In this document: in pieces, positions 1,372 to 49,605 of the stretch
Position numbering within the stretch: the first letter of the stretch is position 1
How the letters are laid out: each line of letters starts with the position of its first letter
From: Emiliania huxleyi CCMP1516
Lineage: Eukaryota
Length of the DNA stretch: 64,000 nucleotides
Direction of reading: 5' to 3'
NCBI RefSeq assembly: GCF_000372725.1
Contig: NW_005201213.1
Span: 1 to 64,000, forward strand
The notes under the pieces: generated by a model
Database searches by the model: none
What the model saw: the letters and a program-made list of their open reading frames with translations, nothing else
What the model was told of the DNA's origin: nothing
Made by a program: the position numbers and the translations under genes

Positions 1372-2122
1372 CCCTCGGGACATGTCCGCCTATCTCGTGG
1401 GAATGGGCGCTCTGCAAAGGGCACCTCCGTACTTCGACGCGGCTGCTCGCGTAGAGGAGGTAGAGAGGGAGAGGTTGTATTGAGTAATGCGTCCTTCTTG
1501 CGGTACGAACCGAAGAGAGACCCTCAGCCTCGCCGCCGCGGGTGCGGCGGCTAAGCCTGACATGCGTTGAGTGAGGGGAGGGAGGCGATGCACTTTGCCC
1601 CCCCCCCCCCCCCAGACGACCGACATCACACACGACAGGCAGCAGCAGACATGCACATGACAGGCGGAGGGACAGGGAGATAACCGCAAGACGCACCCGG
1701 AGCATCCTCTCGGGGGGAATCAAACATCAGTACGGAACATAGTCCCCAGGGTGTGGTGGGCGGGAGGCGACTGAAAGGTGATGGCGAGGCGTGCGAGCGA
1801 TGAAGGGCAGACACTCGATTGCGCCGACCGACGGGCGCAAGTCTGCCGATATCTCATCCAACATCTCATCCAATATCTCATTAGCTTCGACGCCTCATGG
1901 TGTGAAGTAGATGATGTGGTACAGAGGCCTACGGCCTGCACGGCGAGCGCCGCACGAAGCCAAGCACCACCCCTCAGCAGAGCTGGCGAGAATCCTGGCG
2001 GATTCGCGCTACGGAAAGCCACAAGACGACGCGTGACTCACACTCCAAACTCAGTAAGCATGCAACGGGGGTCGCCCCCACTGCACGACGAGCCGCAGCG
2101 GCGGGTGGCCTGCTAAACACAC

Positions 2123-6395: not shown

Positions 6396-6441
6396 TAACG
6401 CGAATACAAAAGAATCTTCAAGGCGCTCTCTCACAAAACAA

Positions 6442-6485
6442 GGCACGGGACTGGCGCGCACTGGCACCAACACAGGTACACCACG
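6442..6485 (-). repeat. Dispersed repeat family A, copy 2
   Basis: GGCACGGGACTGGCGCGCACTGGCACCAACACAGGTACACCACG is the reverse complement of copy 1 and lies just past the RT truncation point. Confidence 0.85.
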
Positions 6486-6763
6486 ATACTCGGGCACGCA
6501 GGACGAAAGAGCTGGAACCCCACCATCATAATCTCCATCCGGACTGCCCATGCACGTGACATGCACAACAACATGCACATGCACATGCACATGCTACATG
6601 TGACTCCCCCCCCCCCCCCCCCTCTCCAACGCAATGTGAATGCCGCGCACATACACCCCGAGCGCCGAGGATGCGGTTTCATGTGCGAGCTAGCTCTACT
6701 ATTGTCCCGTGTTTGCAGGCCATCGCCGCGCCCCACGTTTTGCGCACGACATCGCGCAACCGA

Positions 6764-9700
6764 TCAGACCTGCTGCTGCAGCGACGACGCCTCGCCTCCA
6801 GAGACGTCGCGCGCCGCAGAGCTGCGGCTGCTCATCTTGGCGAACACCCGGCTCAGGCCGCCAAAGCTGCGCTTCGCGAGGTTGGTGCTGCCCTCGGCGA
6901 CGCTGCCCGAGACGAGGAGGCCCGCCCGCGACCGAGCGGGGGTCGCGCCTAGGCTCTTTGCCAGAAGTACGAGCGACACCTGTGGGCAGGGACGCCCCTC
7001 GTCACGAAACGCTCGACGCGGGGTAGAGCTCGCTGTGGGAGAGAGGGCGCGCGCCTTGCGGTGGCGCCCCGGGAAGCACGATTTTGCCAGGTCCTTGTAG
7101 AGTCCGCCGGCGATGAGCTCCTGCAGCGTTGGGGGGAGAGGGTTGGGGGGAGGAGGGGTGGCTCGGGACGGGCGTCACGTTGAGACATTCGCTCCTGCGG
7201 CGTGACTTCGAAAAACCTCGAGAACTGGCAGCCGCGGAGCGCGGGGTCGTTCTCGTGCGCCATCACGATCTTCAGCCTGTCCTCCCGCGCCTGCTTGACC
7301 TGCTCGGCCAGCCGCTCGTCGCTGACGAAGCTGTCCTCGTTGAGGTAGAGAAGCATGTGCGTCGCGCCGGCCGGCCGATCATCGGTGGTGGAGATCGTGA
7401 GACCGGCAAAGGCGGTGGCGATCTCGTTGGCCAGCTCCAGCGACCCCGCGTTGGCAGGCGAGGCCCAGAGCGTGCACGGTTTGGAAAAGGCGAGCGACTG
7501 GCTCTCGAGCTCGCCCGACACGCAGAGCGGGAGGGAGGTCTTGTCCAGAAAGTTGGGCGAGCAGAGGAGCACCGCCTAGGGTGGTTCAAGTGGGGTCGGT
7601 CGGGAGGTAGAGAGGACTGCGGAGCGGCTGGCTGCGGCCGGCGGCGCCTCGGCGATGATCTTGAGCGAGATGAGCTGAAACTCATCGATGCGATACCAGA
7701 TCGTGAGCGGCCAGTCCTTGTCAAAGATGGCCGGCTGCAGGTCCTCGGGGCACTCGTCGCGCAGCGCCTGCAGCGTCCCGCCGCCCTTTTCAGGGTCAGC
7801 TTCTTGGACGAGGACGAGCGGCTTGTCCTTCTCGAGCGACGAGCGAACCTCTCGGAGGCAGTTCTGTGGCGCGGGAGAGGAGGAGGTAAGGCCAGGGTGC
7901 GGTAGAGGCGGGGTGGGAGGTCAGGGAGAGGCGAGCCTTGGAGCGGAAGTAGCCCTGCGAGAGGAAGAAGAGGATGGCCTGCGAGCGCTGGATGTACTCC
8001 TCGAGTGCCCCGATATCCTTAAGATCATCTACCTATGAGAGCACACCGCGGAGCGTCAGAGAGCTGGGCTCTGTGTAGCTAGCGCGGCTGAGCATGTGCG
8101 CGCGTCGAGAAAGACTTTGATGTCCGGCAGCAGCTGTTCGAGCTCACCCTTGATGACCTTGACGGCGTCTTGACCGGTAGACCTATTCGTTTGGGTGAGG
8201 GACGGGGATCACGCCGGCTGTTTTCATTCCCTCTTCTCCCTCCATGACTCACCAGATGTGGCTGTTGAAGAGGTGCCACGTGAGGCCAGTCCCGATGCTC
8301 ATCTCGGGGGGCTGCTTGGTCGAGACGAGTCGGATCGTGGGGATTTTGGCGACGCGGCGGGCGCCGACGATGGCGCCGACGAGGAAGAAGGCGAGCACGG
8401 CTGCAAGAAGGATGATCATCGAGTCGACAATCACATTGAGGCTGCGGAAGCCGAGGACTGCATTGGCATCATCGATCCCGGAGCGCTCCTGGATGCCGAG
8501 GAAGATGGTGCTCCAGTTGGTACCGAGGAAGAGGAGGAGGAGCACGAGGCTCGTGGCGACGGCGAGCACGTTGTCCTCGACCCGCTTGTACGGCCGCACG
8601 ACGGCGAGCGCGACGGCGTAGCATGAGCAGACTAGGGTCGCCACCACGAGGCGAACAAAGGCTCGCTCCTCCGGTATCAGCAGCACGAAGCCTGTGAGCA
8701 CGAGCTTGCGCGCCAGCTCGACCGCCTCCCACCAGTACCAGGTCTTCTCGTACTCCCGGTGGAGGAAGGCGGTGGCCCGCGTCAGAGCATTCGGCGTCTT
8801 GGCCTGCAGCGGCTTGTAGCAGGCGGCGAGGAGCGACGTGAAGAGGACCAGCGAGCCCGCGGGCCAGAGGACGATGAAACCGATGGCGAGGCCGGTGATG
8901 GGTCCGTGAGCGTCGGAGCCGCACTCGACGCTCGCGTCCTGCCGCATGTAGGAGACCTGCTCTAGCTCCTCGCCAGGCGGAGAGGTGGTGTAGGCCTATC
9001 AGCAGAACGTTACGAGGACTGAGGCCGGAGGGGTGGGGTTGTGAGCAGCGGCAGTCATCAGCTGTGAGAGGGCGCCTGGCACGACCAGGATTGGAAAATG
9101 GAGGCGCTGATGGAGGGCACGAAGCAGAAGATGAGCACCAGGCCCGCCGGCGTGAGGTCGAGGAGGCCGAGGGCCGCCTCCGCGTACCACGGCCTCGCGC
9201 GCGGCGCCGGGGCGACGCGCCAGCAGTGGAGCCGCAGGCTTATTCCCGCGACCATTAGCAGGGCGATGAGGGCGACGGGGGAGAGGGCGATGGCGAGGAG
9301 CCGCAGAGCGTAGCCGAGGCACTGCTCCGGCATGAAAAAGCCAGACCAGTCGATGGAGATCACGTTGGCCAGCTTATCCGTCCAGCCCGTGTACTTGTCC
9401 GGCAGCCGCGCGGAGTAGGTGGAGGACAATACAGTGCAGATCTGGTAGAAGCCAAAGAGGATCTTGAGCTTGGCCGTCATTCCGACGCCGACGTAGTACT
9501 TGACGGAGCGGTCTGCAAAGCGGAGGATAGGGCCGATGAAGCGCTCCTTCCGCCACGGCATGTTGTAGGCCCACGCCGCCAAGCCGCACGCGACGCAGAG
9601 GCCGAGGACGAGGCCCACGATGCGGCCAGCCGCCGCGTCGCGCGGAGCGCATAATTCGCACTCATCGCCGTCGACGAGGTAGTGATTCTCCGCGGCGCAG

Positions 9701-12700
9701 AGCTGGCACTCGGGGCCTTTGAAGTCAGAAGCGCAGTACGCGTCCGAGCTCGCCTCCTCCAGCCTCCGGCGGCGAGAGGCCCCTCCCGCCACCGTCTCGC
9801 TGCCGGCGCATCGCGTCTCGCCGGCATTGGCATTGCCGCCAAAGAGGCGGCAGTCTGTCAGCACGGCGGAGGAGGGGCTGGCGCGCCAGAAGCCGCGCGG
9901 GAGGACGAGGGTCTCGAGGGTGGTGTTGGTCGGGCACGTGGCGTCCGGCGGGCACGGGACGCAGTGCTTGGTTGGGGATTTGAAGACGCCATCCACATCG
10001 ACGCTCGCCTTCAGGTAGAATTCAGCCTTGCAGACGGAGCAGGTGACGCTGCCGGTGCCGCTAGCAAGAGGGTAGGGGCAGGGGATGCACTCGCCCTGAC
10101 CCACGTTGGCGGCGTAAGTGTCGGCAGCGCACTCGTCGCAGGAAGAGCTGCCGGCGCCGGAGGATGTGCCGCGAGGGCAGCTCTCACAGATGCTCTGTCC
10201 GGCGAGGGCGGTGAAGGTGCCCGGCGCGCAATCGTTGGCGTCATCGGAGCCGGTCGGGCAGAACGTGCCGGCCGGACAGGTGATGCAGTCGTCCTTGCTC
10301 GTCATGAGGTCGAGGGAGGCGTTGATGCGCGTCCCGGCGGGGCAGGGCAGCGGCGCAGAGGCGCCCTCGGCGCAGTAATGGCCCGGCACGCACGCGATGC
10401 AGTTGGTGGCGCCGCTCGCGTCCTGATATTCGCCGGCGGGGCACTTCTGGCAGATGCTCTGTCCCCTGGAAGCGGTGACAGTGCCCGGCGAGCACGGCGT
10501 CTGCTCGGTGGAGCCCGTCACCGCGAAATAGCCAGCACCGGCCGGCGTGCAGTCGTCCGGTTCGTCGTTGTCGGTCGCGCGCGAGTAGCTGCCCTTGTCG
10601 CATGGCAGCGGCGCCGCCGCGCCCTTGGCGCAGTAGCTGCCCGCCTCGCAAGCGCGACAGGATGTCGCGCCCGTGTCGTTCTGGTAGGTCCCGCCCGCGC
10701 ACTTGTTGCACGCCTCCATCCGCTCGGCCGGCGCGATCGTGCCTGCCGCGCACTGCGTCGGACGCGCAGCCCCGCCCGGACACGACGAGCCCGCCGGGCA
10801 GTCGAAGCAGTCGGGGATGCCGTCGCCGTCCGTGACGTTGGCATACGTGCCCGGCTCGCACGCCGCGGGCAGCTCGAGCGACGCACCGATAGGGCAGGAG
10901 CTGCCAAGCCCGCACCGGACGCAGCCGGCAGCGCCGATGGCGTTCTGGTAGGATCCCGCCTTGCACGGCTCGCACTCGGCGTTGCGAGAGCCGGCAGCAA
11001 ACGTGCCGGCGCGGCAAGCCAAGGGAGCCACGCTGCCAGTGCTGCAAGCGTGGCCCGACGGGCAGTCCTCGCAGCTGCCCGCCGAGTCGAGATTCGTCTT
11101 GTTCGAGTAGCTGCCAGCCTCGCACGGCAGCGCCGCCGCCGCGCCAACAGCGCAGTAGCTGCCTTGCTTGCACGGCTTGCAGTCCATCTTGCCGCCCTTG
11201 TCCTGGAACGTACCGCCGGCGCAGGGCGTGCACGCGCCCTGCCCGTACGCGTCCGTGTACGACCCCTTGGCGCACGCCGTCTGCTGCGTGGAGCCGGTGG
11301 TGGCGAAGTGGCCCGGCGAGGCGTCGGTGCACTCGCCCGCGGCGGTGAGGTTGGTGGCGGTCGAGTAGCTGCCCGCAACGCACGGCAGCGGCGCCGACGC
11401 GCCCTCGGCGCAGTAGCTGCCCTCCACGCACGGAAGGCAGCTCGTCGCGTTCGACTCGCCCTGGTACGTCCCGCCCGCACAGCTGGCGCACTCGGAGAGG
11501 CCGGCCGTGGCGGCGAAAGAGCCCGGCGAGCACTCGGACGGCGGCGCCGCCCCGCCGCCGCACGACGAGCCGGCGGGGCAGTCGAGGCACTCGGGGTCGC
11601 CGCTCCGGTCGGTCAGCCTCGCGTACGTGCCCGCCTCGCACTGCGCGTCCAGCTCGCGCGACGACCCCACCGGGCAAAACTTGCCAGCAGCGCAGCGGAC
11701 GCAGGCGGCGGCGGCGGGCCGGTCCTGGTAGTACCCCTCGGGGCACAGCTCGCACGCGTCGTTGCGGGTGCCGTTGGCGAAGCTGCCCTCGCGGCACGCC
11801 GTCTGCTCGGTGGAGCCGGTGGTGGCGAAGTGGCCCGGCGTGGCGTCGGTGCACTCGCTCGCGTCGGTGAGGTTGGTGGCGCTCGAGTAGCTGCCAGCCT
11901 CGCACGGCAGCGCCGCCGCCGCGCCAACAGCGCAGTAGCTTCCCGCCTCGCACGGCTCGCACGCCGTCTTGCCTTCCTCGTCCTGGTACGTGCCGCCGGC
12001 GCAGGGCGTGCACGCACCCTGCCCGTACGCGTCCGTGTACGACCCCTTGGCGCACGCCGTCTGCTGCGTGGAGCCGGTGGTGGCGAAGTGGCCCGGCGAG
12101 GCGTCGGTGCACTCGCCCGCGGCGGTGAGGTTGGTGGCGGTCGAGTAGCTGCCCGCAACGCACGGCAGCGGCGCCGACGCGCCCTCGGCGCAATAGCTGC
12201 CCTCCACGCACGGAAGGCAGCTCGTCGCGTTCGACTCGCCCTGGTACGTCCCGCCCGCACAGCTGGCGCACTCGGAGAGGCCGGCCGTGGCGGCGAAAGA
12301 GCCCGGCGAGCACTCGGACGGCGGCGCCGCCCCGCCGCCGCACGACGAGCCGGCGGGGCAGTCGAGGCACTCGGGGTCGCCGCTCCGGTCGGTCAGCCTC
12401 GCGTACGTGCCCGCCTCGCACTGCGCGTCCAGCTCGCGCGACGACCCCTGAGGGCAAAACTTGCCAGCAGCGCAGCGGACGCAGGCGGCGGCGGCGGGCT
12501 GGTCCTGGTAGTACCCCTCGGGGCACAGCTCGCACGCGTCGTTGCGGGTGCCGTTGGCGAAGCTGCCCTCGCGGCACGCCGTCGGCTCGGTGGAGCCGGT
12601 GGTGGCGAAGTGGCCCGGCGAGGCGTCGGTGCACTCGCCCGCGGCGGTGAGGTTGGTGGCGGTCGAGTAGCTGCCCGCAACGCACGGCAGCGGCGCCGAC

Positions 12701-15700
12701 GCGCCCTCGGCGCAGTAGCTGCCCTCCACGCACGGAAGGCAGCTCGTCGCGTTCGACTCGCCCTGGTACGTCCCGCCCGCACAGCTGGCGCACTCGGAGA
12801 GGCCGGCCGTGGCGGCGAAAGAGCCCGGCGAGCACTCGGACGGCGGTGCCGCCCCGCCGCCGCACGACGAGCCGGCGGGGCAGTCGAGGCACTCGGGGTC
12901 GCCGCTCCGGTCGGTCAGCCTCGCGTACGTGCCCGCCTCGCACTGCGCGTCCAGCTCGCGCGACGACCCCACCGGGCAAAACTTGCCAGCAGCGCAGCGG
13001 ACGCAGGCGGCGGCGGCGGGCCGGTCCTGGTAGTACCCCTCGGGGCACAGCTCGCACGCGTCGTTGCGGGTGCCGTTGGCGAAGCTGCCCTCGCGGCACG
13101 CCGTCTGCTCGGTGGAGCCGGTGGTGGCGAAGTGGCCCGGCGTGGCGTCGGTGCACTCGCTCGCGTCGGTGAGGTTGGTGGCGCTCGAGTAGCTGCCAGC
13201 CTCGCACGGCAGCGCCGCAGCCGCGCCAACAGCGCAGTAGCTTCCCGCCTCGCACGGCTCGCACGCCGTCTTGCCTTCCTCGTCCTGGTACGTGCCGCCG
13301 GCGCAGGGCGTGCACGCGCCCTGCCCGTACGCGTCCGTGTACGACCCCTTGGCGCACGCCGTCTGCTGCGTGGAGCCGGTGGTGGCGAAGTGGCCCGGCG
13401 AGGCGTCGGTGCACTCGCCCGCGGCGGTGAGGTTGGTGGCGGTCGAGTAGCTGCCCGCAACGCACGGCAGCGGCGCCGACGCGCCCTCGGCGCAGTAGCT
13501 GCCCTCCACGCACGGAAGGCAGCTCGTCGCGTTCGACTCGCCCTGGTACGTCCCGCCCGCACAGCTGGCGCACTCGGAGAGGCCGGCCGTGGCGGCGAAA
13601 GAGCCCGGCGAGCACTCGGACGGCGGTGCCGCCCCGCCGCCGCACGACGAGCCGGCGGGGCAGTCGAGGCACTCGGGGTCGCCGCTCCGGTCGGTCAGCC
13701 TCGCGTACGTGCCCGCCTCGCACTGCGCGTCCAGCTCGCGCGACGACCCCACCGGGCAAAACTTGCCAGCAGCGCAGCGGACGCAGGCGGCGGCGGCGGG
13801 CTGGTCCTGGTAGTACCCCTCGGGGCACAGCTCGCACGCGTCGTTGCGGGTGCCGTTGGCGAAGCTGCCCTCGCGGCACGCCGTCTGCTCGGTGGAGCCG
13901 GTGGTGGCGAAGTGGCCCGGCGTGGCGTCGGTGCACTCGCTCGCGTCGGTGAGGTTGGTGGCGCTCGAGTAGCTGCCAGCCTCGCACGGCAGCGCCGCCG
14001 CCGCGCCAACAGCGCAGTGGCTTCCCGCCTCGCACGGCTCGCACGCCGTCTTGCCTTCCTCGTCCTGGTACGTGCCGCCGGCGCAGGGCGTGCACGCGCC
14101 CTGCCCGTACGCGTCCGTGTACGACCCCTTGGCGCACGCCGTCTGCTGCGTGGAGCCGGTGGTGGCGAAGTGGCCCGGCGAGGCGTCGGTGCACTCGCCC
14201 GCGGCGGTGAGGTTGGTGGCGGTCGAGTAGCTGCCCGCAACGCACGGCAGCGGCGCCGACGCGCCCTCGGCGCAGTAGCTGCCCTCCACGCACGGAAGGC
14301 AGCTCGTCGCGTTCGACTCGCCCTGGTACGTCCCGCCCGCACAGCTGGCGCACTTGGAGAGGCCGGCCGTGGCGGCGAAAGAGCCCGGCGAGCACTCGGA
14401 GGGCGGCGCCGACCCGCCGCCGCACGACGAGCCGGCGGGGCAGTCGAGGCACTCGGGGTCGCCGCTCCGGTCGGTCAGCCTCGCGTACGTGCCCGCCTCG
14501 CACTGCGCGTCCAGCTCGCGCGACGACCCCACCGGGCAAAACTTGCCAGCAGCGCAGCGGACGCAGGCGGCGGCGGCGGGCTGGTCCTGGTAGTACCCCT
14601 TGGCGCACAGCTCGCACGCGTCGTTGCGGGTGCCGTTGGCGAAGCTGCCCTCGCGGCACGCCGTCTGGTCGGTGGAGCCGGTGGTGGCGAAGTGGCCCGG
14701 CGTGGCGTGGGTGCACTCGCTCGCGTCGGTGAGGTTGGTGGCGCTCGAGTAGCTGCCAGCCTCGCACGGCAGCGCCGCCGCCGCGCCAACAGCGCAGTAG
14801 CTTCCCGCCTCGCACGGCTCGCACGCCGTCTTGCCTTCCTCGTCCTGGTACGTGCCGCCGGCGCAGGGCGTGCACGCGCCCTGCCCGTACGCGTCCGTGT
14901 ACGACCCCTTGGCGCACGACGTCTGCTGCGTGGAGCCGGTGGTGGCGAAGTGGCCCGGCGAGGCGTCGGTGCACTCGCCCGCGGCGGTGAGGTTGGTGGC
15001 GGTCGAGTAGCTGCCCGCAACGCACGGCAGCGGCGCCGACGCGCCCTCGGCGCAGTAGCTGCCCTCCACGCACGGAAGGCAGCTCGTCGCGTTCGACTCG
15101 CCCTGGTACGTCCCGCCCGCACAGCTGGCGCACTCGGAGAGGCCGGCCGTGGCGGCGAAAGAGCCCGGCGAGCACTCGGACGGCGGCGCCGCCCCGCCGC
15201 CGCACGACGAGCCGGCGGGGCAGTCGAGGCACTCGGGGTCGCCGCTCCGGTCGGTCAGCCTCGCGTACGTGCCCGCCTCGCACTGCGCGTCCAGCTCGCG
15301 CGACGACCCCACCGGGCAAAACTTGCCAGCAGCGCAGCGGACGCAGGCGGCGGCGGCGGGCTGGTCCTGGTAGTACCCCTCGGGGCACAGCTCGCACGCG
15401 TCGTTGCGGGTGCCGTTGGCGAAGCTGCCCTCGCGGCACGCCGTCTGCTCGGTGGAGCCGGTGGTGGCGAAGTGGCCCGGCGTGGCGTCGGTGCACTCGC
15501 TCGCGTCGGTGAGGTTGGTGGCGCTCGAGTAGCTGCCAGCCTCGCACGGCAGCGCCGCAGCCGCGCCAACAGCGCAGTAGCTTCCCGCCTCGCACGGCTC
15601 GCACGCCGTCTTGCCTTCCTCGTCCTGGTACGTGCCGCCGGCGCAGGGCGTGCACGCACCCTGCCCGTACGCGTCCGTGTACGACCCCTTGGCGCACGCC

Positions 15701-18700
15701 GTCTGCTGCGTGGAGCCGGTGGTGGCGAAGTGGCCCGGCGAGGCGTCGGTGCACTCGCCCGCGGCGGTGAGGTTGGTGGCGGTCGAGTAGCTGCCCGCAA
15801 CGCACGGCAGCGGCGCCGACGCGCCCTCGGCGCAGTAGCTGCCCTCCACGCACGGAAGGCAGCTCGTCGCGTTCGACTCGCCCTGGTACGTCCCGCCCGC
15901 ACAGCTGGCGCACTCGGAGAGGCCGGCCGTGGCGGCGAAAGAGCCCGGCGAGCACTCGGAGGGCGGCGCCGACCCGCCGCCGCACGACGAGCCGGCGGGG
16001 CAGTCGAGGCACTCGGGGTCGCCGCTCCGGTCGGTCAGCCTCGCGTACGTGCCCGCCTCGCACTGCGCGTCCAGCTCGCGCGACGACCCCACCGGGCAAA
16101 ACTTGCCAGCAGCGCAGCGGACGCAGGCGGCGGCGGCGGGCTGGTCTTGGTAGTACCCCTCGGGGCACAGCTCGCACGCGTCGTTGCGGGTGCCGTTGGC
16201 GAAGCTGCCCTCGCGGCACGCCGTCTGCTCGGTGGAGCCGGTGGTGGCGAAGTGGCCCGGCGAGGCGTCGGTGCACTCGCTCGCGTCGGTGAGGTTGGTG
16301 GCGCTCGAGTAGCTGCCAGCCTCGCACGGCAGCGCCGCCGCCGCGCCAACAGCGCAGTAGCTTCCCGCCTCGCACGGCTCGCACGCCGTCTTGCCTTCCT
16401 CGTCCTGGTACGTGCCGCCGGCGCAGGGCGTGCACGCGCCCTGCCCGTACGCGTCCGTGTACGACCCCTTGGCGCACGCCGTCTGCTGCGTGGAGCCGGT
16501 GGTGGCGAAGTGGCCCGGCGTGGCGTCGGTGCACTCGCTCGCGTCGGTGAGGTTGGTGGCGCTCGAGTAGCTGCCAGCCTCGCACGGCAGCGCCGCCGCC
16601 GCGCCAACAGCGCAGTAGCTTCCCGCCTCGCACGGCTCGCACGCCGTCTTGCCTTCCTCGTCCTGGTACGTGCCGCCGGCGCAGGGCGTGCACGCGCCCT
16701 GCCCGTACGCGTCCGTGTACGACCCCTTGGCGCACGCCGTCTGCTGCGTGGAGCCGGTGGTGGCGAAGTGGCCCGGCGAGGCGTCGGTGCACTCGCCCGC
16801 GGCGGTGAGGTTGGTGGCGGTCGAGTAGCTGCCCGCAACGCACGGCAGCGGCGCCGACGCGCCCTCGGCGCAGTAGCTGCCATCCACGCACGGAAGGCAG
16901 CTCGTCGCGTTCGACTCGCGCTGGTACGTCCCGCCCGCACAGCTGGCGCACTCGGAGAGGCCGGCCGTGGCGGCGAAAGAGCCCGGCGAGCACTCGGAGG
17001 GCGGCGCCGCCCCGCCGCCGCACGACGAGCCGGCGGGGCAGTCGAGGCACTCGGGGTCGCCGCTCCGGTCGGTCAGCCTGGCGTACGTGCCCGCCTCGCA
17101 CTGCGCGTCCAGCTCGCGCGACGACCCCACCGGGCAAAACTTGCCAGCAGCGCAGCGGACGCAGGCGGCGGCGGCGGGCTGGTCCTGGTAGTACCCCTCG
17201 GGGCACAGCTCGCACGCGTCGTTGCGGGTGCCGTTGGCGAAGCTGCCCTCGCGGCACGCCGTCTGGTCGGTGGAGCCGGTGGTGGCGAAGTGGCCCGGCG
17301 AAGCGTCGGTGCACCCGCTCGCGTCGGTGAGGTTGGTGGCGCTCGAGTAGCTGCCAGCCTCGCACGGCAGCGCCGCCGCCGCGCCAACAGCGCAGTAGCT
17401 TCCCGCCTCGCACGGCTCGCACGCCGTCTTGCCTTCCTCGTCCTGGTACGTGCCGCCGGCGCAGGGCGTGCACGCGCCCTGCCCGTACGCGTCCGTGTAC
17501 GACCCCTTGGCGCACGCCGTCTGCTGCGTGGAGCCGGTGGTGGCGAAGTGGCCCGGCGAGGCGTCGGTGCACTCGCCCGCGGCGGTGAGGTTGGTGGCGG
17601 TCGAGTAGCTGCCCGCAACGCACGGCAGCGGCGCCGACGCGCCCTCGGCGCAGTAGCTGCCCTCCACGCACGGAAGGCAGCCCGTCGCGTTCGACTCGCC
17701 CTGGTGCGTCCCGCCCGCACAGCTGGCGCACTCGGAGAGGCCGGCCGTGGCGGCGAAAGAGCCCGGCGAGCACTCGGAGGGCGGCGCCGCCCCGCCGCCG
17801 CACGACGAGCCGGCGGGGCAGTCGAGGCACTCGGGGTCGCCGCTCCGGTCGGTCAGCCTCGCGTACGTGCCCGCCTCGCACTGCGCGTCCAGCTCGCGCG
17901 ACGAGCCCTGAGGGCAAAACTTGCCAGCAGCGCAGCGGACGCAGGCGGCGGCGGCGGGCCGGTCCTGGTAGTGCCCCTCGGGGCACAGCTCGCACGCGTC
18001 GTTGCGGGTGCCGTTGGCGAAGCTGCCCTCGCGGCACGCCGTCTGCTCGGTGGAGCCGGTGGTGGCGAAGTGGCCCGGCGTGGCGTCGGTGCACTCGCTC
18101 GCGTCGGTGAGGTTGGTGGCGCTCGAGTAGCTGCCAGCCTCGCACGGCAGCGCCGCCGCCGCACCAACAGCGCAGTGGCTTCCCGCCTCGCACGGCTCGC
18201 ACGCCGTCTTGCCTTCCTCGTCCTGGTACGTGCCGCCGGCGCAGGGCGTGCACTCGCCCTGCCCGTACGCGTCCGTGTACGACCCCTTGGCGCACGCCGT
18301 CTGCTGCGTGGAGCCGGTGGTGGCGAAGTGGCCCGGCGAGGCGTCGGTGCACTCGCCCGCGGCGGTGAGGTTGGTGGCGGTCGAGTAGCTGCCCGCAACG
18401 CACGGCAGCGGCGCCGACGCGCCCTCGGCGCAGTAGCTGCCCTCCACGCACGGAAGGCAGCTCGTCGCGTTCGACTCGCCCTGGTACGTCCCGCCCGCAC
18501 AGCTGGCGCACTCGGAGAGGCCGGCCGTGGCGGCGAAAGAGCCCGGCGAGCACTCGGACGGCGGCGCCGCCCCGCCGCCGCACGACGAGCCGGCGGGGCA
18601 GTCGAGGCACTCGGGGTCGCCGCTCCGGTCGGTCAGCCTCGCGTACGTGCCCGCCTCGCACTGCGCGTCCAGCTCGCGCGACGACCCCACCGGGCAAAAC

Positions 18701-21700
18701 TTGCCAGCAGCGCAGCGGACGCAGGCGGCGGCGGCGGGCCGGTCCTGGTAGTGCCCCTCGGGGCACAGCTCGCACGCGTCGTTGCGGGTGCCGTTGGCGA
18801 AGCTGCCCTCGCGGCACGCCGTCTGCTCGGTGGAGCCGGTGGTGGCGAAGTGGCCCGGCGTGGCGTCGGTGCACTCGCTCGCGTCGGTGAGGTTGGTGGC
18901 GCTCGAGTAGCTGCCAGCCTCGCACGGCAGCGCCGCCGCCGCGCCAACAGCGCAGTGGCTTCCCGCCTCGCACGGCTCGCACGCCGTCTTGCCTTCCTCG
19001 TCCTGGTACGTGCCGCCGGCGCAGGGCGTGCACGCGCCCTGCCCGTACGCGTCCGTGTACGACCCCTTGGCGCACGCCGTCTGCTGCGTGGAGCCGGGGG
19101 TGGCGAAGTGGCCCGGCGAGGCGTCGGTGCACTCGCCCGCGGCGGTGAGGTTGGTGGCGGTCGAGTAGCTGCCCGCAACGCAAGGCAGCGGCGCCGACGC
19201 GCCCTCGGCGCAGTAGCTGCCCTCCACGCACGGAAGGCAGCTCGTCGCGTTCGACTCGCCCTGGTACGTCCCGCCCGCACAGCTGGCGCACTCGGAGAGG
19301 CCGGCCGTGGCGGCGAAAGAGCCCGGCGAGCACTCGGAGGGCGGCGCCGCCCCGCCGCCGCACGACGAGCCGGCGGGGCAGTCGAGGCACTCGGGGTCGC
19401 CGCTCCGGTCGGTCAGCCTCGCGTACGTGCCCGCCTCGCACTGCGCGTCCAGCTCGCGCGACGAGCCCTGAGGGCAAAACTTGCCAGCAGCGCAGCGGAC
19501 GCAGGCGGCTGCGCCAATATCGCTCTGGTAGTAGCCCTGCGGGCAATTCTGGCAGGCCTGCTCACCCTTCCCAGATGCGAAGCTGCCGGCGCGGCAAGGC
19601 ACACAGGTAGCGTTTTTGCTAGCCTCGATGCCAGAGCTCGAGGTGCCGGCGGGGCAGAGAAGGCACGATTCTATTGAGGTGGATTTGGTTTCCGGGTTGT
19701 AGCTGCCGGCGGGGCACGCCTGCCGCACCATGCTCCCGTCCACCACCTCGCAGTAGCCGCCCGACTTGCAAACCTCACATTCCGAGCTCCCGGTGTTGGC
19801 CGAGTGGGTCCCTGTTGGGCAGGTTGTGCAGCTCGGCTGGCCGGGCTTCGACTGGTACTGCCCGCGGGGACAATCAAGGCAGTCTTCTGCTTTGGACGCT
19901 CCAAAGAGCGGCATGTAAGTCCCGTTGGCGCAAGGCGTCGGGTTAACGGTCCTCTCCCCGCAGTAATAACCTGGCGGGCAGATGTTGCTGCACCTGGCGG
20001 TAATCAGGTCGGCTGCAATGCCGTAGTACCGTTCGGGACAGGCGTTGCAGCCGAGCACGTCGCCCTCGAATACGCCACGAGTGGGCATCCATTCGCCGAG
20101 CGGGCAGGGGTGCCAGCTTAGTTGGGAGACGGCTGTGATCGTGACCCCGTCACTGTCAGCGACGTTGCTCTCAAAAAGCGAGTCGGCCACCGACCCCTGC
20201 ATCGAATCCGAGCCGCTGTAGTAGAAGGCGGAGGCCGAGGCTGCCCGGTTCTCGCTCACGTTCGACCGCACGAGGGTTGCACTGCCCGTGCTGCTCTCGT
20301 ACTGGATTCCTCCGCCGCTGTTCGCTGCGATGCTGTTGCTCACCCCACTGTCTGTCAGCGAAAGCGCTCCACTGTCGGCCATGGCGATGCCGCCGCCATT
20401 GGCGCCGGCGGAGCAGTCTGTAATGCTCGAGCTAGTAGTAAGCGCAAGCGCGCCGCTCTGCCGGATTGAGATGCCGCCGCCGCTGCCCGCGGCACGGCAG
20501 CCAGAGAGGCTCGACCTCTCGAGCTCGACATCGCCGCTGTTCTCCATGGCGATGCCGCCGCCGTCTCCACCGGACTCGCTATCCTCGATGCTCGAGTCTT
20601 TCAATTTGAGGGAGCCCGCACCGGAGCCTCGGATGGCGCCGCCGTCGCCATCGGTGTAGCCGTTGACGAGCGTCAGCCCCTGGAGGGTGAGGTTGCAGCC
20701 GCCAGACATAGAAAAGAGCCGCGACCGGCCCTGGCCATCGAGGGTCGCGCCAACTCCGCTGCTGCGAACAACAAGCGCGACATTGCCGCTGCACTTGGAG
20801 TCCAGCGTGGATCTCAGCATGATGTGGGCGCCGGGCGCGACGAAGATGTGCGCCTGGCCGTTGGCAATCAAGGAGCGAAGCTCGCTTTCTGTCTGTGCGG
20901 ACGCTTCGTTGGGCCGGAGCGGCGGTAGTGGTGAGGTCGGTGGGGACGAGGGCGGCGGCGGCGGCGGCGGCGAGGTCGGTGGGGACGAGGGCGGCGGCAG
21001 CGACGGCGGCGACGGCGGGACCGGCGGCGGGACCGGCGCCTTGGCCGGAGGGTACGGCGGCAGAGACGGAGGCACAGACTGCGAGAAGGAGACGTCGTCC
21101 AGCGCCATGTCCGACCTGGAGCCCGACCCCGTCAAGCCGTTGAAGCGCACCTTCGTCGTCGAGGCGGGTAGGACGACCGCCGCGCCGGACCAGGCGTCGC
21201 CCTGGTCGCCGGTCCTGCTCCAGAGTGTCGACCATCCCGTCTCGTCGTTGTTGGCCTGGACGGAGAGGGTGCCCATGTCCAAGCCGTACATGTGGTAGAA
21301 GAAGGAGAGGGTGGCGTCCTGCTGGAGCGAGAAGCGCGGGCTCTCGAGCTGGTGCAGCTTGTTGTAGGGCGAGTCATCTCCGTAGTGGTATTCATAGTCG
21401 CCTTCGGTGTAGACGTAGTAGCCCGAGCCGGTGGTGTGGTCGCTGCTCGGGCCTGTGTTTGATGATGACGTGCCGCCGCTCTTGCGGTACCAATAAGCCC
21501 CGACCGGCAAATCCCATCCGAGGTTGGTCCAGGCGCAAATGTCGACCTCGAAATCGCAGCTCAGCTGCACCATGTCGGGTAGAAGAGGCGGAGGAGAGGG
21601 CGGCGGAGGCGGAGAGGACGGTGGAGAGGGCGGCGGCGGCGGCGATGAGGGCGACGGCGGCAAGGACGGCGGCGTCGGCGGCGTAGAGGGCGGAGACGGC

Positions 21701-22787
21701 AAGGACGGCGGCGACGGCGGCGGCGACGGCGGTGCAAACTGCGAGAAGGAGACGTCGTCCAGCGCCATGTCCGACCTGTCCGACCAACTAGACCCCGTCA
21801 AGCCGTTGAAGCGCACCTTCGTCGTCGAGGCGGGCAGGAGGATCGCCGCGTCGAGCCAGCTATTGCCCTGGTTACCAGTCCTGCTCCAGAGCGTGGACCA
21901 GCCCGTCTCATTGTTGTAGGCCTCGATGGAGAGGGTGCCTATCTCATTGCTGTACCAGTACCCGTCGTACATGTGGTAGAAGAAGGAGAGGGTGGCGTCC
22001 TGCTGGAGCGAGAAGCGCGGGCTCTCGAGCTGGTGCAGCTTGTTGGAGCGCGAGGTCGCCTCGGTGAAGAGGTAGTAGCCCGAGCCGGTGGTGTGGTCGC
22101 CGCTAGGGCCTGTGTATGACGATGGCGTGCTGCCGCTCGTGCGGGTCCAAGAGAACCCGTCCGGCGCGGTGTCGATCCAGGCGCAAATGTCGACCTCGAA
22201 ATCGCAGCTCACCATGTCGGGTAGAAGAGGCGGCGGAGTGGGCGGCGGCGGCAAGGGCGGCAGCGGCGGCGGCGTAGAGGGCGGAGACGGCAAGGACGGC
22301 GGCGACGGCGGCGGCGGCGGCGGCGGCGGTGAAGGCGGTGATGGCGGTGATGGCGGTGATAGCGGCGGAGCGAGAGGCGGTGATGGCGGTGAAGGCGGCG
22401 GGGTCGCCCAACAGATCTGACGGCAGAGGGAGGAGGGCATCAGAGAGGAGAAAGAAGGGGAGCGAGAGGGACCAGGGGCGCGCCTTCCAGCCCGACCCGA
22501 CTACGCTGCCATCCGATCGCCACTCGATGACGCCGTCCTCCGCCACCGCGCCACTCGGCCCCGACGTGCCGCAGTACTTCTTGCCGTTGACGGTGAGATA
22601 GTCACAACCGCAGCTGCCGCATTGCTCCACATCAAAGGCGACCGTCTCCAGCTCGTATGGCGGCACGCCGCTGATGGTGCACTCCTCGTTCCTGCCATAG
22701 CTGTTCGGGTAGTTTGGCGACGCGGCGCACAAGCCGCCGTCGGTGAGCGAGCACGGGCCGGTGATGAAGTAGCCGCCAGGGAGGAGC

Positions 22788-22818
<31 letters not shown>

Positions 22819-25800
22819 GCGGTGCAAACTGCGAGAAGGAGACGTCGTCCAGCGCCATGTCCGACCTGACAGGTGTGTAGCCACTAGACCCCGTCAAGCC
22901 GTTGAAGCGCACCTTCGTCGTCGAGGCGGGCAGGAGGATCGCCGCGTCGAGCCAGCTATTGCCCTGGTTACCAGTCCTGCTCCAGAGCGTGGACCAGCCC
23001 GTCTCATTGTTGTAGGCCTCGATGGAGAGGGTGCCCATCTCATTGCTGAACGTGAACCCGTCGTACATGTGGTAGAAGAAGGAGAGGGTGGCGTCCTGCT
23101 GGAGCGAGAAGCGCGGGCTCTCGAGCTGGTGCAGCTTGTTGGAGCGCGAGGTCGCCTCGGTGAAGAGGTAGTAGCCCGAGCCGGTGGTGTGGTCGCCGCT
23201 AGGGCCTGTGTATGACGATGGCGTGCTGCCGCTCGTGCGGGTCCAAGAGAACCCGTCCGGCGCGGTGTCGATCCAGGCGCAAATGTCGACCTCGAAATCG
23301 CAGCTCACCATGTCGGGTAGAAGAGGCGGCGGAGTGGGCGGCGGCGGCAAGGGCGGCAGCGGCGGCGGCGTAGAGGGCGGAGACGGCAAGGACGGCGGCG
23401 ACGGCGGCGACAGCGGCGGCGGCGGTGAAGGCGGTGATGGCGGTGATGGCGGTGGTGGCGGGGAGGGAGAGGCGGAGGGAGGCGCCGCCGGCGGCTTGGG
23501 ACTGGCGCGCGCGTACACGCGGGTGATCATGCTCGAGCACGACTTGGACGACGAGCCGTAGTACAGGGTGCTGCAGCTGCTGTCGCCCGAGTTGCAGTTC
23601 GACTGGCCGTAGACGCCCGTGCCCGAGCAGACGCCGGTGGAGCCGGAGACCGTGTTCTGCTGGTCGCCGTCGATGATCACGCCGCTGCCGCCCATCCACG
23701 CGAAGTCGTCCGAGGCCAGAGCCGAGCCGGAGGCGCCGACGGAGCCGGTCCAGTACACGGTGGTCGAGGTGCCGACCCACGTGCCGCTCATGGTGACGGG
23801 GCTGCTGAGGAGCGAGCCCGAGGCGGACCATGTGACGGGGATGCCGCCCAAGTTGGCCGCGGCGAGGGTGGCGCCGATCGTGCGGTCCGTGTCGAACTTG
23901 TACTCGAGCGTCAGGTCGGGGCCAGTGCTGCCGTCGCAGTAGAACTCCTGCTCCCACGTGTCGGTCGTGTCGGTGACGCAGTCGGTGCAGACCAGCGGCG
24001 AGGTCGACGTCGCGAAATTGGACGGCTCCGGGCCGTACGGCAGGCTCTCGGCGCACCTGGAGCCGCTGGTGACGGCGAACTGGACCAGCACCTTGGGCGG
24101 CGGCGCGGGCGAAGCGAAGACGTAGAACTTGCACACCGTCAGCCCCGCCGCAGACGGCCGGTTGAGGTAGATGTAGCGCCCCAACGCGTTGATCTCCACC
24201 TCCAACATCACGTTCGACAACACGCTCACGTCCGACTTCACCAGCGCGTTGCCCGTGTACGTCTCCGCCGTCGAGCCGAGATAGATGTCGACGTCCGTCA
24301 GCCGCTCCGCGCAGCAGTCGTTGCGGTTCTGCAGCCGCACGTAGCGCACATACACCTCGCTCCCGAGGTCGACGCCCCACCATTGGCTTGTGTAGTGGCC
24401 GCACTCGGCCCACGGCCGTCCCGTCGTGCTGTCGGCGTATGACAGGTCGCTCACGGGCGCCTGCTTGTCGAACAAGCTCGAGTCCTGGTACGTGGTGGCG
24501 GCGCGGAGGTCGAGCAGCTGCACGTCAGGCGGCGGCGGCGACGGCGAGGCGGACGGCGGCGGCGCAGGGTGAGGCGGCGCAGCCCAGCACACCTACCTCG
24601 AGGTACACATGAACATGACATGACATGACATGACATGAACATGAACATGAACATGAACATGAACATGAACATGAGCGTGGGGGGGTGGGGGGGCTGGGCA
24701 CCAGGGCTGGGTGAAGCGCGAGAGCTGAGGAGGTGCATTGGGGAGCGAGAGATTTCAGTGCGCGCGGCCTGCAGGCAGAAGATGAACACAATGCCAACTC
24801 GGAGAGCACGCGTGCTGGAGAGCAAGGGTACGGAGATCGCTGCGTGGCCGCGGCCCTCCACCCTCTTCTTCTTGACCTGTCCACGCAGCAGCAGCCCAAG
24901 GCACGCCGCGAGGAGCAGCGCCAGCACGGCCGCACAAGAGTGGAGAAAGAGCAGCGAGGCCGCATCGATCTCTGAGAGGGCCGTGGCGTTCCTGAAGCTC
25001 GTCTCGAGTGAGGGGTAACCGATCTTGGTCGCGCCGGAAGTCTCGTCAAAGGGGGCGAGCTCGGCGTAGGCGCCCATGTTGAGCTTGGAGGTGGTTGGGT
25101 AGACGTTGGAGTGGGCCGTGGCGGTCATGGAGCCTGCCTCGTCCGTCGTGGAGCCCGGAGCAGGCTCGTTCTGAGGGGAGGGGGGGAGGTTGGAGCGGAG
25201 AGGCGGCGACGGCGCGCAGCGGAGGCGCCGATGTGGGGCCGACGGTGTGGGAGCGGGGAGCGAGGGCGGGGCGAAGAGGGGGCGAGAGGGGGTGGAGGGC
25301 GGCGCAGGGGAGGGCGGCGGAGCAGGGAGAGGCGGCAAGGGAGTTTGGGGGAGGNNNNNNNNNNNNNNNNNNNNNNNNNNNNNNNNNNNNNNNNNNNNNN
25401 NNNNNNNNNNNNNNNNNNNNNNNNNNNNNNNNNNNNNNNNNNNNNNNNNNNNNNGCGGCGGGGGAGCGGCGGCAAGGGAGGTGGGGAGGGCGGCGGGGGA
25501 GGCCGGCCGGCAAGGGATGGTGTTGGGGTGGGTGGAGGGGCGGGAGGTGGCGGTGGGTGAAGAGAACAGAGAGAGAACTGAGTCGCACACCTTTGTGTCC
25601 GTCTCGTCGGCCTCGATCTTGGAGTGGGCCGTGGCGGATTTGAAGTCCGTCTCGTTGCTCGTGGAGCCCGAGGCCTCGATCGGATCCTTAGAGACGCAAA
25701 GCTCGGCGAGCGGCTGCGGCGGCGCCGCGCACCACACAGGGGCGCCGCCGCCGCACGTGACACCGACGGAGTTGGCGGTGGAGTCGGCGAGCGAGACGTC

Positions 25801-26205
25801 GCCATTCTTGACCGCGCCGGCAGCCTCGCCAAAGGAGGCGAGCTCGGGGTCGGCCGCGGCGCCGATGGGCTTGAAGGTAGTCGGGCCGGCGGCGCGCGAG
25901 GCGGCGCCGCTGAACTTGGAGAGGTTGAACGGGAAGGAGAAGGAGAAGGCGTGAAAGGTGGCGACGACCGGACAGGCACCGAACAGCGCCCCCCCACCCC
26001 CGAGGACGTCTTGGTGGAGCAGGAGCTCCGCGGCCTTGTCGGGTTTGCGCGAGGCAGACGCCGCGAGGGCGGGTGCCGACGCGTCGGTCTGGAGCTTGTT
26101 GCTGAGGTCGGTGCGGTTGCGCGTGTCGATGAGTGCCCCCCCGCGCCGCGGACGGGGGCGAGAGGCGGCGATTGAGGGCGTCGAGAGAAGAGCGAGGACG
26201 AGCAT
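6764..26205 (-). CDS. Giant multi-pass receptor-like protein (~6,200 aa): F-type lectin, MAM x3, CUB, beta-helix, ephrin-receptor-like (GCC2/GCC3) Cys-rich repeats, ~9 TM, two C-terminal TIR-like domains
   Basis: Hand-built exons: 26205-24769, 24592-22484, 22416-9076, 8995-8253, 8182-8104, 8032-7937, 7863-7648, 7575-7195, 7120-7055, 6979-6764. All joins are in frame and restore motifs (GWK|ICW, SCQ|AY, HIW|STGQD, FLD|VDDL, YFRSK|NCLREV, TPQ|ELI). Signal peptide MLVLALLSTPSIA. Exon 1 spans a 100-N gap, so its frame and linkage are less certain. Confidence 0.85.
11105..19510 (-). repeat. Intragenic coding tandem array, 780-bp (260-aa) unit, ~11 copies
   Basis: The ECLDCPAGSSC marker recurs at ~11581, 12361, 12883, 13663, 14443, 15223, 16003, 17041, 17821, 18601 and 19381. 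Spacing is 780 except one of 522 and one of 1038. Copies differ by scattered single substitutions. Confidence 0.95.
21080..23410 (-). repeat. Triplicated MAM-domain module with (SPP)n linkers; copies at ~21720-22310 and ~22800-23410 are near-identical
   Basis: CDFE..C.W, GPS.DHTTGSGYY, L.FFYHMY, W...GNQG..W and DMALDD each appear three times, with long nucleotide identity between two copies. Confidence 0.9.
24608..24673. repeat. (ATGAC)n/(ATGAAC)n microsatellite in intron 1 of the giant gene
   Basis: Directly visible. Confidence 0.9.
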
Positions 26206-49495: not shown

Positions 49496-49605
49496 CCGTT
49501 TCGACTTTTCTTTTATCAAAGAAAAAGAAAACTGTGCGCATCCAACAACTTTAGACGAATTTATTTATTTAGGTAGAACGGCGTTTGCTGGGCCCATCGG
49601 TGCAG

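What the first reader, a model, noticed from the sequence alone, without database searches (positions are those of the whole stretch)
6764..26205. Hidden giant TIR-domain receptor: lectin/MAM/CUB ectodomain on a Cys-rich stalk, ~9-TM core and tandem TIR tail
Seen: splicing the small minus-strand exons below 9 kb yields WHLFNSHIWSTGQD...VFLDVDDL...FFLSQGYFRSKNCLREV...PLVLV. This TIR_2-like signature is absent from the ORF track. It is joined in frame to a multi-pass TM region and a >5,000-aa ectodomain. Established: TIR domains signal in innate immunity, often as NADases, and F-type lectin, MAM and CUB are recognition or adhesion modules. Inference: a Toll-like, non-LRR, multi-pass pattern-recognition receptor in a unicellular alga, possibly sensing virus, bacteria, grazers or mates.
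Basis: partly seen in the sequence, partly recalled or inferred. Interest (0 to 1): 0.9.

Follow-up and report, generated by a model that had tools for sequence, protein, structure and literature searches.

The report
Giant algal twin-TIR membrane receptor
This gene, likely from the bloom-forming alga Emiliania (Gephyrocapsa), encodes a predicted 6,087-residue protein with lectin-like and adhesion domains on a long cysteine-rich stalk, a predicted nine-helix membrane core and two immune-type TIR domains; it likely acts as a surface sensor that makes an NAD-derived signal, and it belongs to a large, little-described algal receptor family.

Summary
Eleven minus-strand exons give one unbroken 6,087-aa frame. 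All seven 3' introns are confirmed in relatives: among 46 of 62 homologous loci, 173 of 214 scored sites have an intron at the same place and 28 lack it exactly. The three 5' joins have no RNA test. A paralog's TIR1 (90% identical) folds like SARM1 TIR (Z 16.3, 2.0 A), and its catalytic Glu is kept in 141 of 145 representatives. TIR2 is a TIR duplicate (98%) with Gln at that site, likely a pseudo-enzyme. The predicted 9-helix core has no solved match, resembles fungal FLC/Pkd2 (PF06011, below cut-off) and puts the TIRs inside the cell. The family is large (682 clusters at E<=1e-30), haptophyte where named, and swaps ectodomains. It is partly in print: Shaler 2025 lists virus-induced multi-TM TIR genes of G. 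huxleyi. One of their two core resistance TIR genes, called cytoplasmic, is a 5'-truncated transcript of this family. Ligand, enzyme activity and this copy's expression are untested. It is not a Toll-like receptor by membership.

The parts
25591..26205 (-). Exon 1 (aa 1-205): start codon, likely signal peptide, low-complexity leader
   Evidence: Frame; 70% identical over 205 columns to E. huxleyi TM-TIR paralog model P0004; no Pfam hit; GT donor; following intron has a 100-N gap
24769..25170 (-). Exon 2 (aa 206-339): predicted membrane helix (273-305), basic loop, second signal-like hydrophobic stretch (326-346)
   Evidence: Hydropathy; loop has 6 K/R against 1 D/E; 48% identical over 61 columns to paralog P0064
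22484..24592 (-). Exon 3 (aa 340-1042): F5/8-type (F-type-lectin-like) domain 24239-24424, an unassigned ~230-aa region, MAM1 22832-23302, CUB-like 22550-22723, Pro/Ser-rich linkers
   Evidence: Pfam PF22633 E 2.9e-10, PF00754 E 2.4e-8, PF00629 E 1.4e-27, PF00431 E 0.0034 below cut-off; coordinates
21082..22206 (-). MAM2 and MAM3 (exon 4)
   Evidence: PF00629 E 3.2e-56; 94% and 68% identical to MAM1; 700-bp DNA duplicate at 96%
20143..20646 (-). Right-handed beta-helix, shared with close paralogs
   Evidence: PF13229 E 1.3e-7; 31-41% identical to P0004, P0008, P0011, P0063, P0064
9645..20115 (-). Cys-rich stalk, about 3,500 aa at about 10% Cys. It includes 32 copies of three ~86-aa modules, 88-100% identical, in the order (ABC)x3, ABBC, (ABC)x4, AC, ABC, AB
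   Evidence: PF07699, TNFR and NCD3G hits; Cys density and module map; 258-bp tandem period
8350..9642 (-). Predicted nine-helix membrane core (aa 5301-5705), split by intron 4 (8996-9075); N-terminus outside, C-terminus inside
   Evidence: AlphaFold2 model of paralog P0067, pLDDT 93, nine long helices; alternating K/R loop bias; weak PF06011
7567..8284 (-). TIR1 (aa 5727-5870), spread over exons 5-9; putative catalytic Glu5800 at 7849-7851
   Evidence: Paralog model matches SARM1 TIR, Z 16.3, rmsd 2.0 A over 128 residues; the Glu aligns with the plant and Cat1 TIR catalytic Glu (weak hits); Glu in 141 of 145 representatives and 38 of 39 loci
6938..7500 (-). TIR2 (aa 5893-6030), exons 9-11; Gln5959 at 7300-7302 in place of the catalytic Glu
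   Evidence: hhalign to TIR1 98%, E 1.8e-13; TIR1-only profile 11.7 bits against at most 3.4 for 500 shuffles; atlas neighbours are TIR_2 clusters; Gln in 35 of 37 loci, 77% aa identity
6764..6937 (-). Short Ser-rich C-terminal tail and stop codon (6764-6766)
   Evidence: the same tail ends P0001, P0002, P0004, P0012, P0023

Best explanation
The gene encodes a predicted 6,087-residue membrane protein with lectin-like, MAM, CUB-like and beta-helix domains on a 3,500-residue Cys-rich stalk, a predicted nine-helix core and two TIR domains; it likely works as a surface receptor whose first TIR would cleave NAD+ into a nucleotide signal when ligand binding clusters the receptor. Shown: the spliced 3' structure, the domain order, the TIR fold (on a 90%-identical paralog), Glu in TIR1 and Gln in TIR2, and ectodomain swapping across the family. 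Inferred: (1) the stalk holds the binding domains far from the membrane; (2) they bind surface glycans or proteins of a virus, microbe or another cell; (3) clustering lets TIR1 domains assemble and make ADPR or a cADPR isomer; (4) TIR2 is a conserved pseudo-enzyme that holds TIR1 off or templates its assembly; (5) the output is a defence programme. Near-identical stalk repeats and duplicated MAM units suggest that recombination keeps retuning reach and specificity on a fixed signalling base.
For: The gene structure is confirmed in relatives. TIR fold: the best match is SARM1 TIR, an NADase. Glu is kept in 141 of 145 representatives, and the other 4 are alignment gaps. Loop charges put the C-terminus inside: K/R fraction 0.17, 0.15, 0.18, 0.20, 0.12 after odd helices against 0.07, 0.08, 0.12, 0.07 after even ones. 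The tandem models as one rigid unit (pTM 0.90), and TIR2 is as conserved as TIR1 (77% against 78%). An E-to-Q change abolished activity of a green-algal TIR (10.64898/2026.04.20.719644, section 9). Among 27 long relatives, 23 hit TIR_2 and carry varied ectodomains: Venus-flytrap, GPS, Kelch, LamG, GH19, MAM, F5/8, beta-helix, Ig-like. That is the pattern of a recognition repertoire. In G. huxleyi, two family members rise during EhV infection (log2FC up to 6.2 and 2.9) and one is a core marker of resistant cells (log2FC 8.7) (PMC12489294 Tables S2, S7, S9).
Against: No ligand, activity or localisation has been measured. Only 4 of 29 Glu-bearing protist TIRs gave a detectable cADPR isomer in E. 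coli, and some Glu-bearing TIRs are inactive (same preprint, passages). The virus-responsive members are distant: P0058 is 54% identical in TIR1 and lies outside this gene's clade. None of the paper's 15 TIR genes is from this subclade. A fourth member (cogent9830_i1) shows no significant rise and falls in recovered cells. RNA support comes from paralogs, not this copy. The same membrane core carries giant ectodomains without TIR in green algae and an oomycete (0 of 7 with a TIR hit), so the chassis is not immune-specific. No close viral counterpart was found.
Confidence: 0.5

Rival explanations
1. It is a polycystin-like contact or force sensor. The long stalk tethers the cell to a surface, coccolith, mate or neighbour, the FLC/Pkd2-type core passes or gates Ca2+, and the TIR tail is a signalling add-on (for example cADPR for Ca2+ release) with no defence role.
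For: The core matches PF06011-bearing proteins, and HHsuite in PMC12489294 Table S2 labels family member cogent2584_i1 'TRP'. Fission-yeast Pkd2 has nine predicted helices over about 405 aa with the same N-out, C-in layout (10.1101/2022.08.11.503631, passages) and passes Ca2+ on stretch (PMC9727806, abstract). Three of 27 relatives carry a GPS site. MAM and CUB are adhesion modules (established knowledge).
Against: The PF06011 match is below the cut-off (12 bits against 28.5 for exon 5) and covers only the C-terminal third of the family model. No ML-like lid domain was seen. Pore residues were not tested. Family members respond to virus.
Confidence: 0.22
2. It is a recognition receptor whose TIRs act only as scaffolds, recruiting cytosolic TIR adaptors or E3 ligases as animal Toll-like receptors do, with little or no NAD+ cleavage.
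For: Several Glu-bearing TIRs are inactive, and most protist TIRs tested gave no product. TIR2 is conserved without Glu. Relatives carry C-terminal PDZ or RING domains. IL-1RAcP, MyD88 and MAL TIRs score Z 14-15, close behind SARM1.
Against: The Glu is invariant in TIR1 across 50%-identity clusters but free to vary in TIR2 (141 of 145 against 82 of 137). That contrast is expected if TIR1 is catalytic.
Confidence: 0.16
3. The family is real, but this 6,087-aa product is not made as modelled. Exons 1-2 (or 1-3) may belong to a separate or mis-joined unit across the N gap, the stalk copy number may be an assembly error, or the copy may be silent.
For: There is a 100-N gap in intron 1, and the 5' joins have no RNA test. 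No held protein or locus matches the lectin or CUB part (0 of 237 proteins; 0 of 62 loci). The stalk units are up to 100% identical. Intron retention is common in this species (PMC4028052). No run held more than 36% of the sampled words.
Against: There is one open frame over 18.3 kb with a GN..AG site at every join. MAM1 (exon 3) is 94% identical to MAM2 (exon 4). Exons 1 and 2 match TM-TIR paralog models. Exons 1-3 have coding-type third-position GC. MAM2 through helix 4 is a single exon.
Confidence: 0.12

Closest known systems
G. huxleyi virus-responsive TIR genes of Shaler et al. 2025 (PMC12489294): cogent9830_i1, cogent2584_i1, 373cFLNC_128518286, cogent2074_i1 (= EMIHUDRAFT_201153 = P0058)
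   Same: Same TIR1 clade and, for these four of the 15 listed genes, the same multi-pass core (by eye from Table S9; P0058 by BLAST). A receptor-like role was already proposed.
   Different: Those entries are 2.0-4.4 kb transcripts with one TIR noted. The passages and tables read do not define the family, the second TIR, the FLC/Pkd2-like core or the ectodomain swapping, and they call cogent2074_i1 cytoplasmic although its transcript starts at residue 391 of a protein with the membrane core upstream. This gene has a 5,300-aa ectodomain and lies in a younger subclade.
SARM1 and plant NLR TIR NADases
   Same: TIR fold (Z 16.3 to SARM1; Z 13-14 to RUN1, RPV1, RPP1) and the catalytic Glu position.
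   Different: No ARM/SAM or NB-ARC/LRR. The TIR hangs from a multi-pass membrane core and is followed by a Gln-bearing second TIR.
Animal Toll-like and IL-1 receptors
   Same: Extracellular binding part, membrane anchor and cytosolic TIR.
   Different: No LRR or Ig ectodomain; nine core helices rather than one; two TIRs.
Fungal FLC/Pkd2 'TRP-like' proteins (PF06011) and the giant-ectodomain PF06011/DUF7630 proteins of green algae, oomycetes and ciliates
   Same: About 400-aa nine-helix core, N-out and C-in; giant mosaic Cys-rich ectodomains in the protist members.
   Different: None of the 7 long relatives found had a TIR hit. Fungal members have a small ML-like lid. Channel activity is untested here.

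Membership tests
TIR domain (TIR1) | TIR flavodoxin-like fold | tested here: met
   Model of the 90%-identical paralog P0023: SARM1 TIR Z 16.3, rmsd 2.0 A, 128 residues; all top 50 rows are TIR proteins
TIR domain (TIR1) | Pfam TIR_2 gathering score (28 bits) | tested here: inconclusive
   The spliced window protein itself was not scanned. P0023 scores 25.4 bits, E 2.2e-5; 12 of 27 long relatives exceed 28
Catalytic TIR NADase (TIR1) | Glu on helix alphaC | tested here: met
   Glu5800; 141 of 145 representatives; aligns with L7, RPS4 and Cat1 Glu in weak hits (E 0.1-0.9)
Catalytic TIR NADase (TIR1) | NAD+ cleavage on assembly | not testable with these tools
   Needs an assay
TIR domain (TIR2) | Homology to TIR | tested here: met
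   hhalign 98%, E 1.8e-13 to TIR1; five-strand alpha/beta order in the model; atlas neighbours. The fold searches covered only TIR1
Catalytic TIR NADase (TIR2) | Glu on helix alphaC | tested here: not met
   Gln5959 here and in 35 of 37 loci; Glu in 82 of 137 distant representatives
Toll-like receptor | LRR ectodomain | tested here: not met
   No LRR hit in the Pfam scans of exons 1-3 and the non-repetitive ends of exon 4; the unscanned middle of exon 4 is the Cys-module repeat
Toll-like receptor | Single membrane helix | tested here: not met
   Nine helices in the core model plus two hydrophobic stretches in the leader
Toll-like receptor | Cytosolic TIR | tested here: met
   By prediction only: loop charge pattern and odd helix count
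FLC/Pkd2 TRP-like (PF06011) | Nine-helix core, N-out and C-in | tested here: met
   compared with the published Pkd2 prediction. No direct structural superposition was possible
FLC/Pkd2 TRP-like (PF06011) | PF06011 gathering score (28.5) | tested here: inconclusive
   Exon 5 scores 12 bits; paralogs up to 21. The family profile hits the PF06011 stretch of P0239 (38 bits for PF06011) at E 5e-9
FLC/Pkd2 TRP-like (PF06011) | ML-like lid domain before the core | tested here: not met
   Cys-rich repeats run up to helix 1; no such Pfam hit
FLC/Pkd2 TRP-like (PF06011) | Ca2+ permeation | not testable with these tools
   Needs reconstitution
Adhesion GPCR / polycystin-1 | GAIN/GPS before the membrane part | tested here: not met
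   No GPS hit in this gene; present far upstream in 3 of 27 relatives
Adhesion GPCR / polycystin-1 | 7TM GPCR or polycystin core fold | tested here: inconclusive
   No Foldseek match at E<=0.001; best VIA Z 8.0 over 113 residues
F-type lectin | F5/8-type fold | tested here: met
   PF00754 34.6 bits against cut-off 28.2
F-type lectin | Fucose binding | not testable with these tools
   A His and an Arg-x-Asp...Arg pattern like the recalled fucolectin motif are visible in the translation; binding is untested

The most novel reading that the evidence does not exclude
Haptophytes independently built a Toll-like immune repertoire of hundreds of receptors by grafting an enzyme/pseudo-enzyme TIR pair onto a Pkd2/FLC-type channel-like core and shuffling ectodomains onto it. 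Ligand binding would trigger both an NAD-derived second messenger and Ca2+ entry from one polypeptide. This gene is an extreme, still-recombining member, and the published core marker of EhV resistance (cogent2074_i1) is a membrane receptor of the same class rather than a cytosolic NADase.
Probability: 0.3. Interest if true: 0.88.

Novelty: new variant of a known kind. Interest (0 to 1): 0.66.

Why it matters
How bloom-forming haptophytes sense giant viruses and become resistant is an open question, and no receptor for it turned up in the papers read. This work names a candidate receptor class with a testable catalytic residue, a built-in natural Glu-to-Gln control in TIR2, and a variable binding end. 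It also suggests that one of two published core resistance TIR genes has been misread as cytosolic because its transcript was cut short. GC/GA splice donors corrupt the TIR in existing E. huxleyi gene models (retained intron, missing residues), so the family is likely under-counted. The nine-helix core has no solved relative in these searches.

Tried and rejected
No whole genome is held for this window, so paralogs could not be counted in its own assembly. Single tail exons give no Pfam hit. A sequence search of the TIR profile against PDB gave only weak TIR hits (E 0.1-0.9). The membrane core has no clear structural match: no Foldseek hit at E<=0.001 and a best VIA Z of 8.0 on four-helix pieces, which shows neither a GPCR fold nor a new fold. 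No relative was found in viral contigs (0 confirmed of 1 candidate). The viral fold library gave a Chrysochromulina ericina virus TIR at only 18% identity, so a viral decoy of this clade is not supported. Depth and the small-share runs X13-X15 were not used as evidence of copy number, expression or habitat. Complex prediction for TIR self-association was not available, so assembly is untested. Two look-ups of earlier scan findings returned nothing. Literature searches found no paper that defines this family, within an open-access library only. Rejected: a single-exon gene ending at the 9058 stop, and an end at the 8249 stop; both stops lie in introns that relatives keep or lose exactly.
Full report
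Gene model. The window is about 65% GC with N gaps, and no whole genome is held. Reading the minus strand gives eleven exons that translate as one frame of 6,087 aa with a single terminal stop. Seven donors are GC, two GT and one GA, all acceptors are AG, and eight of ten introns are 67-80 nt. PMC4028052 (passages) reports 56% GC, 40% GT and 4% GA donors in curated E. huxleyi genes and says automated models mis-call them. The nearest named proteins are E. huxleyi CCMP1516 models at up to 99% identity for exon 8 and up to 92% for exon 5, so the source is likely Emiliania/Gephyrocapsa.

Are the 3' junctions real? Three lines of evidence say yes. First, the intron-free paralog P0023 aligns to the spliced tail at 77% with no gap at the six tail junctions; P0032 and P0056 show the same continuous TIR. 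Second, a metagenome scan gave 62 homologous loci, of which 46 passed the alignment filter. Of 214 intron sites scored, 173 hold an intron at the same place with GC/GT/GA..AG ends, 28 lack it exactly and 13 are short or odd alignments. Six of the seven introns are exactly absent in at least one locus; intron 10 is present in 31 of 31. Half of the single-base codon changes are synonymous against 25% expected, though the loci are related. Third, RNA contigs from two metatranscriptome studies cross or end at all seven junctions with the next exon's letters. They carry many fixed differences, so they show family splicing, not expression of this copy. The three 5' joins have no RNA test, and intron 1 holds a 100-N gap. 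They rest on frame, splice signals, third-position GC, 94% identity of MAM1 to MAM2, and matches of exon 1 (70%) and exon 2 (48%) to TM-TIR paralog models P0004 and P0064.

Ectodomain. Pfam (which scanned all exons but only the ends of the repeat in exon 4) finds an F5/8-type domain, three MAMs, a CUB below cut-off, a beta-helix and Ephrin_rec_like/TNFR-type repeats. The stalk runs about 3,500 aa at about 10% Cys. It includes 32 copies of three ~86-aa modules, 88-100% identical, with one extra and one missing B module, which suggests recent unequal exchange (inference). Upstream of the lectin is a leader with a likely signal peptide, a membrane helix, a basic loop and a second signal-like helix. 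Similar paired hydrophobic stretches are visible by eye in several paralogs; their role is unexplained.

Membrane core. An AlphaFold2 model of paralog P0067's core (65% identical; 60-row alignment) has pLDDT 93 and nine long helices. K/R content alternates high after odd helices and low after even ones, so the C-terminus is predicted inside. There is no clear solved match. Sequence evidence points to PF06011, the fungal FLC/Pkd2 family. The hits are below cut-off. The ESM atlas gives ciliate, oomycete and chlorophyte clusters, one with PF06011 on 25% of members. The family profile finds 7 proteins of about 3,000-4,900 aa. Six of them match in the core and 4 of the 6 scanned show PF06011 there; none of the 7 has a TIR hit. 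Fission-yeast Pkd2 is predicted to have nine helices over 405 aa (10.1101/2022.08.11.503631, passages) and passes Ca2+ under stretch (PMC9727806, abstract only).

TIR tail. The spliced window protein was not scanned against Pfam or folded; P0023 (90% identical in TIR1, 70% in TIR2) stood in. It hits TIR_2 at E 2.2e-5, below cut-off. Its model (pLDDT 93.5, pTM 0.90) shows two alpha/beta domains, and the first matches SARM1 TIR at Z 16.3 and 2.0 A. Glu5800 sits at the catalytic position and is kept in 141 of 145 representatives that have TIR1 (n = 149; the other 4 are gaps). The equivalent TIR2 site is Glu in 82 of 137 and Gln here. TIR2 is a duplicate of TIR1 and is as conserved as TIR1 within the subfamily, with Gln in 35 of 37 loci. 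In a 2026 preprint (10.64898/2026.04.20.719644; passages and section 9 read, supplements closed) an E-to-Q change abolished a green-algal TIR's product. In the same work only 4 of 29 protist TIRs gave a detectable product; its Table S4, which I could not see, may say whether a haptophyte TIR of this clade was tested.

Family. P0023 finds 682 clusters at E<=1e-30 and 2,742 at E<=1e-10 among 1.84 billion 50%-identity representatives. These counts include part matches, and only the best 150 were listed. Of 149 examined, 145 have TIR1, 137 TIR2, 104 a core hit and 71 at least 300 of 408 core columns. Of 20 looked up, 3 clusters name an organism, all Prymnesium parvum; atlas clusters are mostly Haptophyta where a phylum is recorded. 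Of 27 long representatives scanned, 23 hit TIR_2. Their ectodomains include Venus-flytrap, GPS, Kelch, LamG, cadherin-like, GH19, MAM, F5/8, filamin, Ig-like and beta-helix domains, and three have a C-terminal PDZ. A TIR1 tree of 60 rows (the window, 14 chosen relatives, 45 of 125 representatives drawn at random) places this gene in a shallow clade with six E. huxleyi models and P0023 (support 99/95), apart from P0058. No held protein matches this gene's lectin or CUB part, although those gene models are unreliable.

What is in print. PMC12489294 (abstract, passages, section 20, all of Table S9 with long cells cut, and selected rows of S2 and S5-S8 read; the PDF and text supplements not read) reports 15 differentially expressed TIR genes in G. 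huxleyi during EhV infection. Some have an extracellular region or several membrane helices, and a receptor-like role is proposed. [quoted passage not shown] The last is annotated EMIHUDRAFT_201153, which is P0058: core, TIR1, TIR2 with Glu, then RING. Its transcript aligns from residue 391, just after the core, which likely explains the paper's 'cytoplasmic' label. None of the 15 is from this gene's subclade. Six searches found no description of the tandem TIR, the PF06011-like core or the ectodomain shuffling.

Verdict. It works like a TIR-signalling surface receptor but is not a Toll-like receptor by membership. The most likely mechanism (0.5) is ligand-driven clustering that switches on a catalytic TIR1, restrained or templated by a pseudo-catalytic TIR2. 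Rivals are a polycystin-like contact/Ca2+ sensor (0.22), a scaffold-only TIR receptor (0.16) and a mis-joined or silent copy (0.12). Membrane TIR genes in this alga are already reported, so this is a new variant of a known kind. The family view, the enzyme/pseudo-enzyme pair and the re-reading of a resistance marker make it worth testing.

Noticed in passing
P0058 (EMIHUDRAFT_201153) and PMC12489294 Table S9: The core resistance gene cogent2074_i1, labelled cytoplasmic, aligns from residue 391 of a protein that has the multi-pass core upstream, two Glu-bearing TIRs and a C-terminal RING; it is likely a 5'-truncated membrane receptor.
   Followed up: partly
window 24769-26205 (-): The leader has a likely signal peptide, a membrane helix, a basic loop and a second signal-like helix ahead of the ectodomain; a similar pair is seen by eye in several paralogs. 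Role unexplained.
   Followed up: partly
L005, L008, L009, L018-L021, L023, L025, L040-L043, L046, L047, L052, L054: Single introns are exactly absent in some genomic relatives while neighbouring introns are kept, so intron loss or gain is frequent in this family.
   Followed up: partly
P0001, P0002, P0004, P0012: Existing E. huxleyi models skip four TIR residues and retain or drop sequence at intron 7, which removes the Pfam TIR hit in P0001 and P0004.
   Followed up: partly
P0070: A 2,498-aa relative carries the core-TIR1-TIR2 module twice in one protein.
   Followed up: no
window 5026-6528 (+): Reverse-transcriptase ORF (PF00078, E 5e-27) ending about 240 bp from the gene's stop codon on the opposite strand; likely a retrotransposon.
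   Followed up: no
window 27236-27564 and 28746-29075: 330-bp near-exact duplicate (99.4%) next to the N gap just upstream of the gene; may be an assembly artefact or a mobile element end.
   Followed up: no
window 54183-55985 (-): RING finger plus 48-aa ARM repeats (LRRK2/ZER1-like), and a U-box ORF at 49573-50664 (+): two E3-ligase-type genes in the same window.
   Followed up: no
window 56792-56962 and 39512-39629: Telomere-like 7-bp tandem array inside the window, and a 5-bp array beside an N gap.
   Followed up: no
window 41999-42549 and 48102-48651: 553-bp direct repeat at 98% identity, about 6 kb apart, around a 1,035-codon plus-strand frame with no Pfam hit; may be an LTR-like element.
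   Followed up: no
window 2117-3628 (+) and 62941-63999 (-): GDSL-like hydrolase (below cut-off) and CRT-like transporter frames.
   Followed up: no
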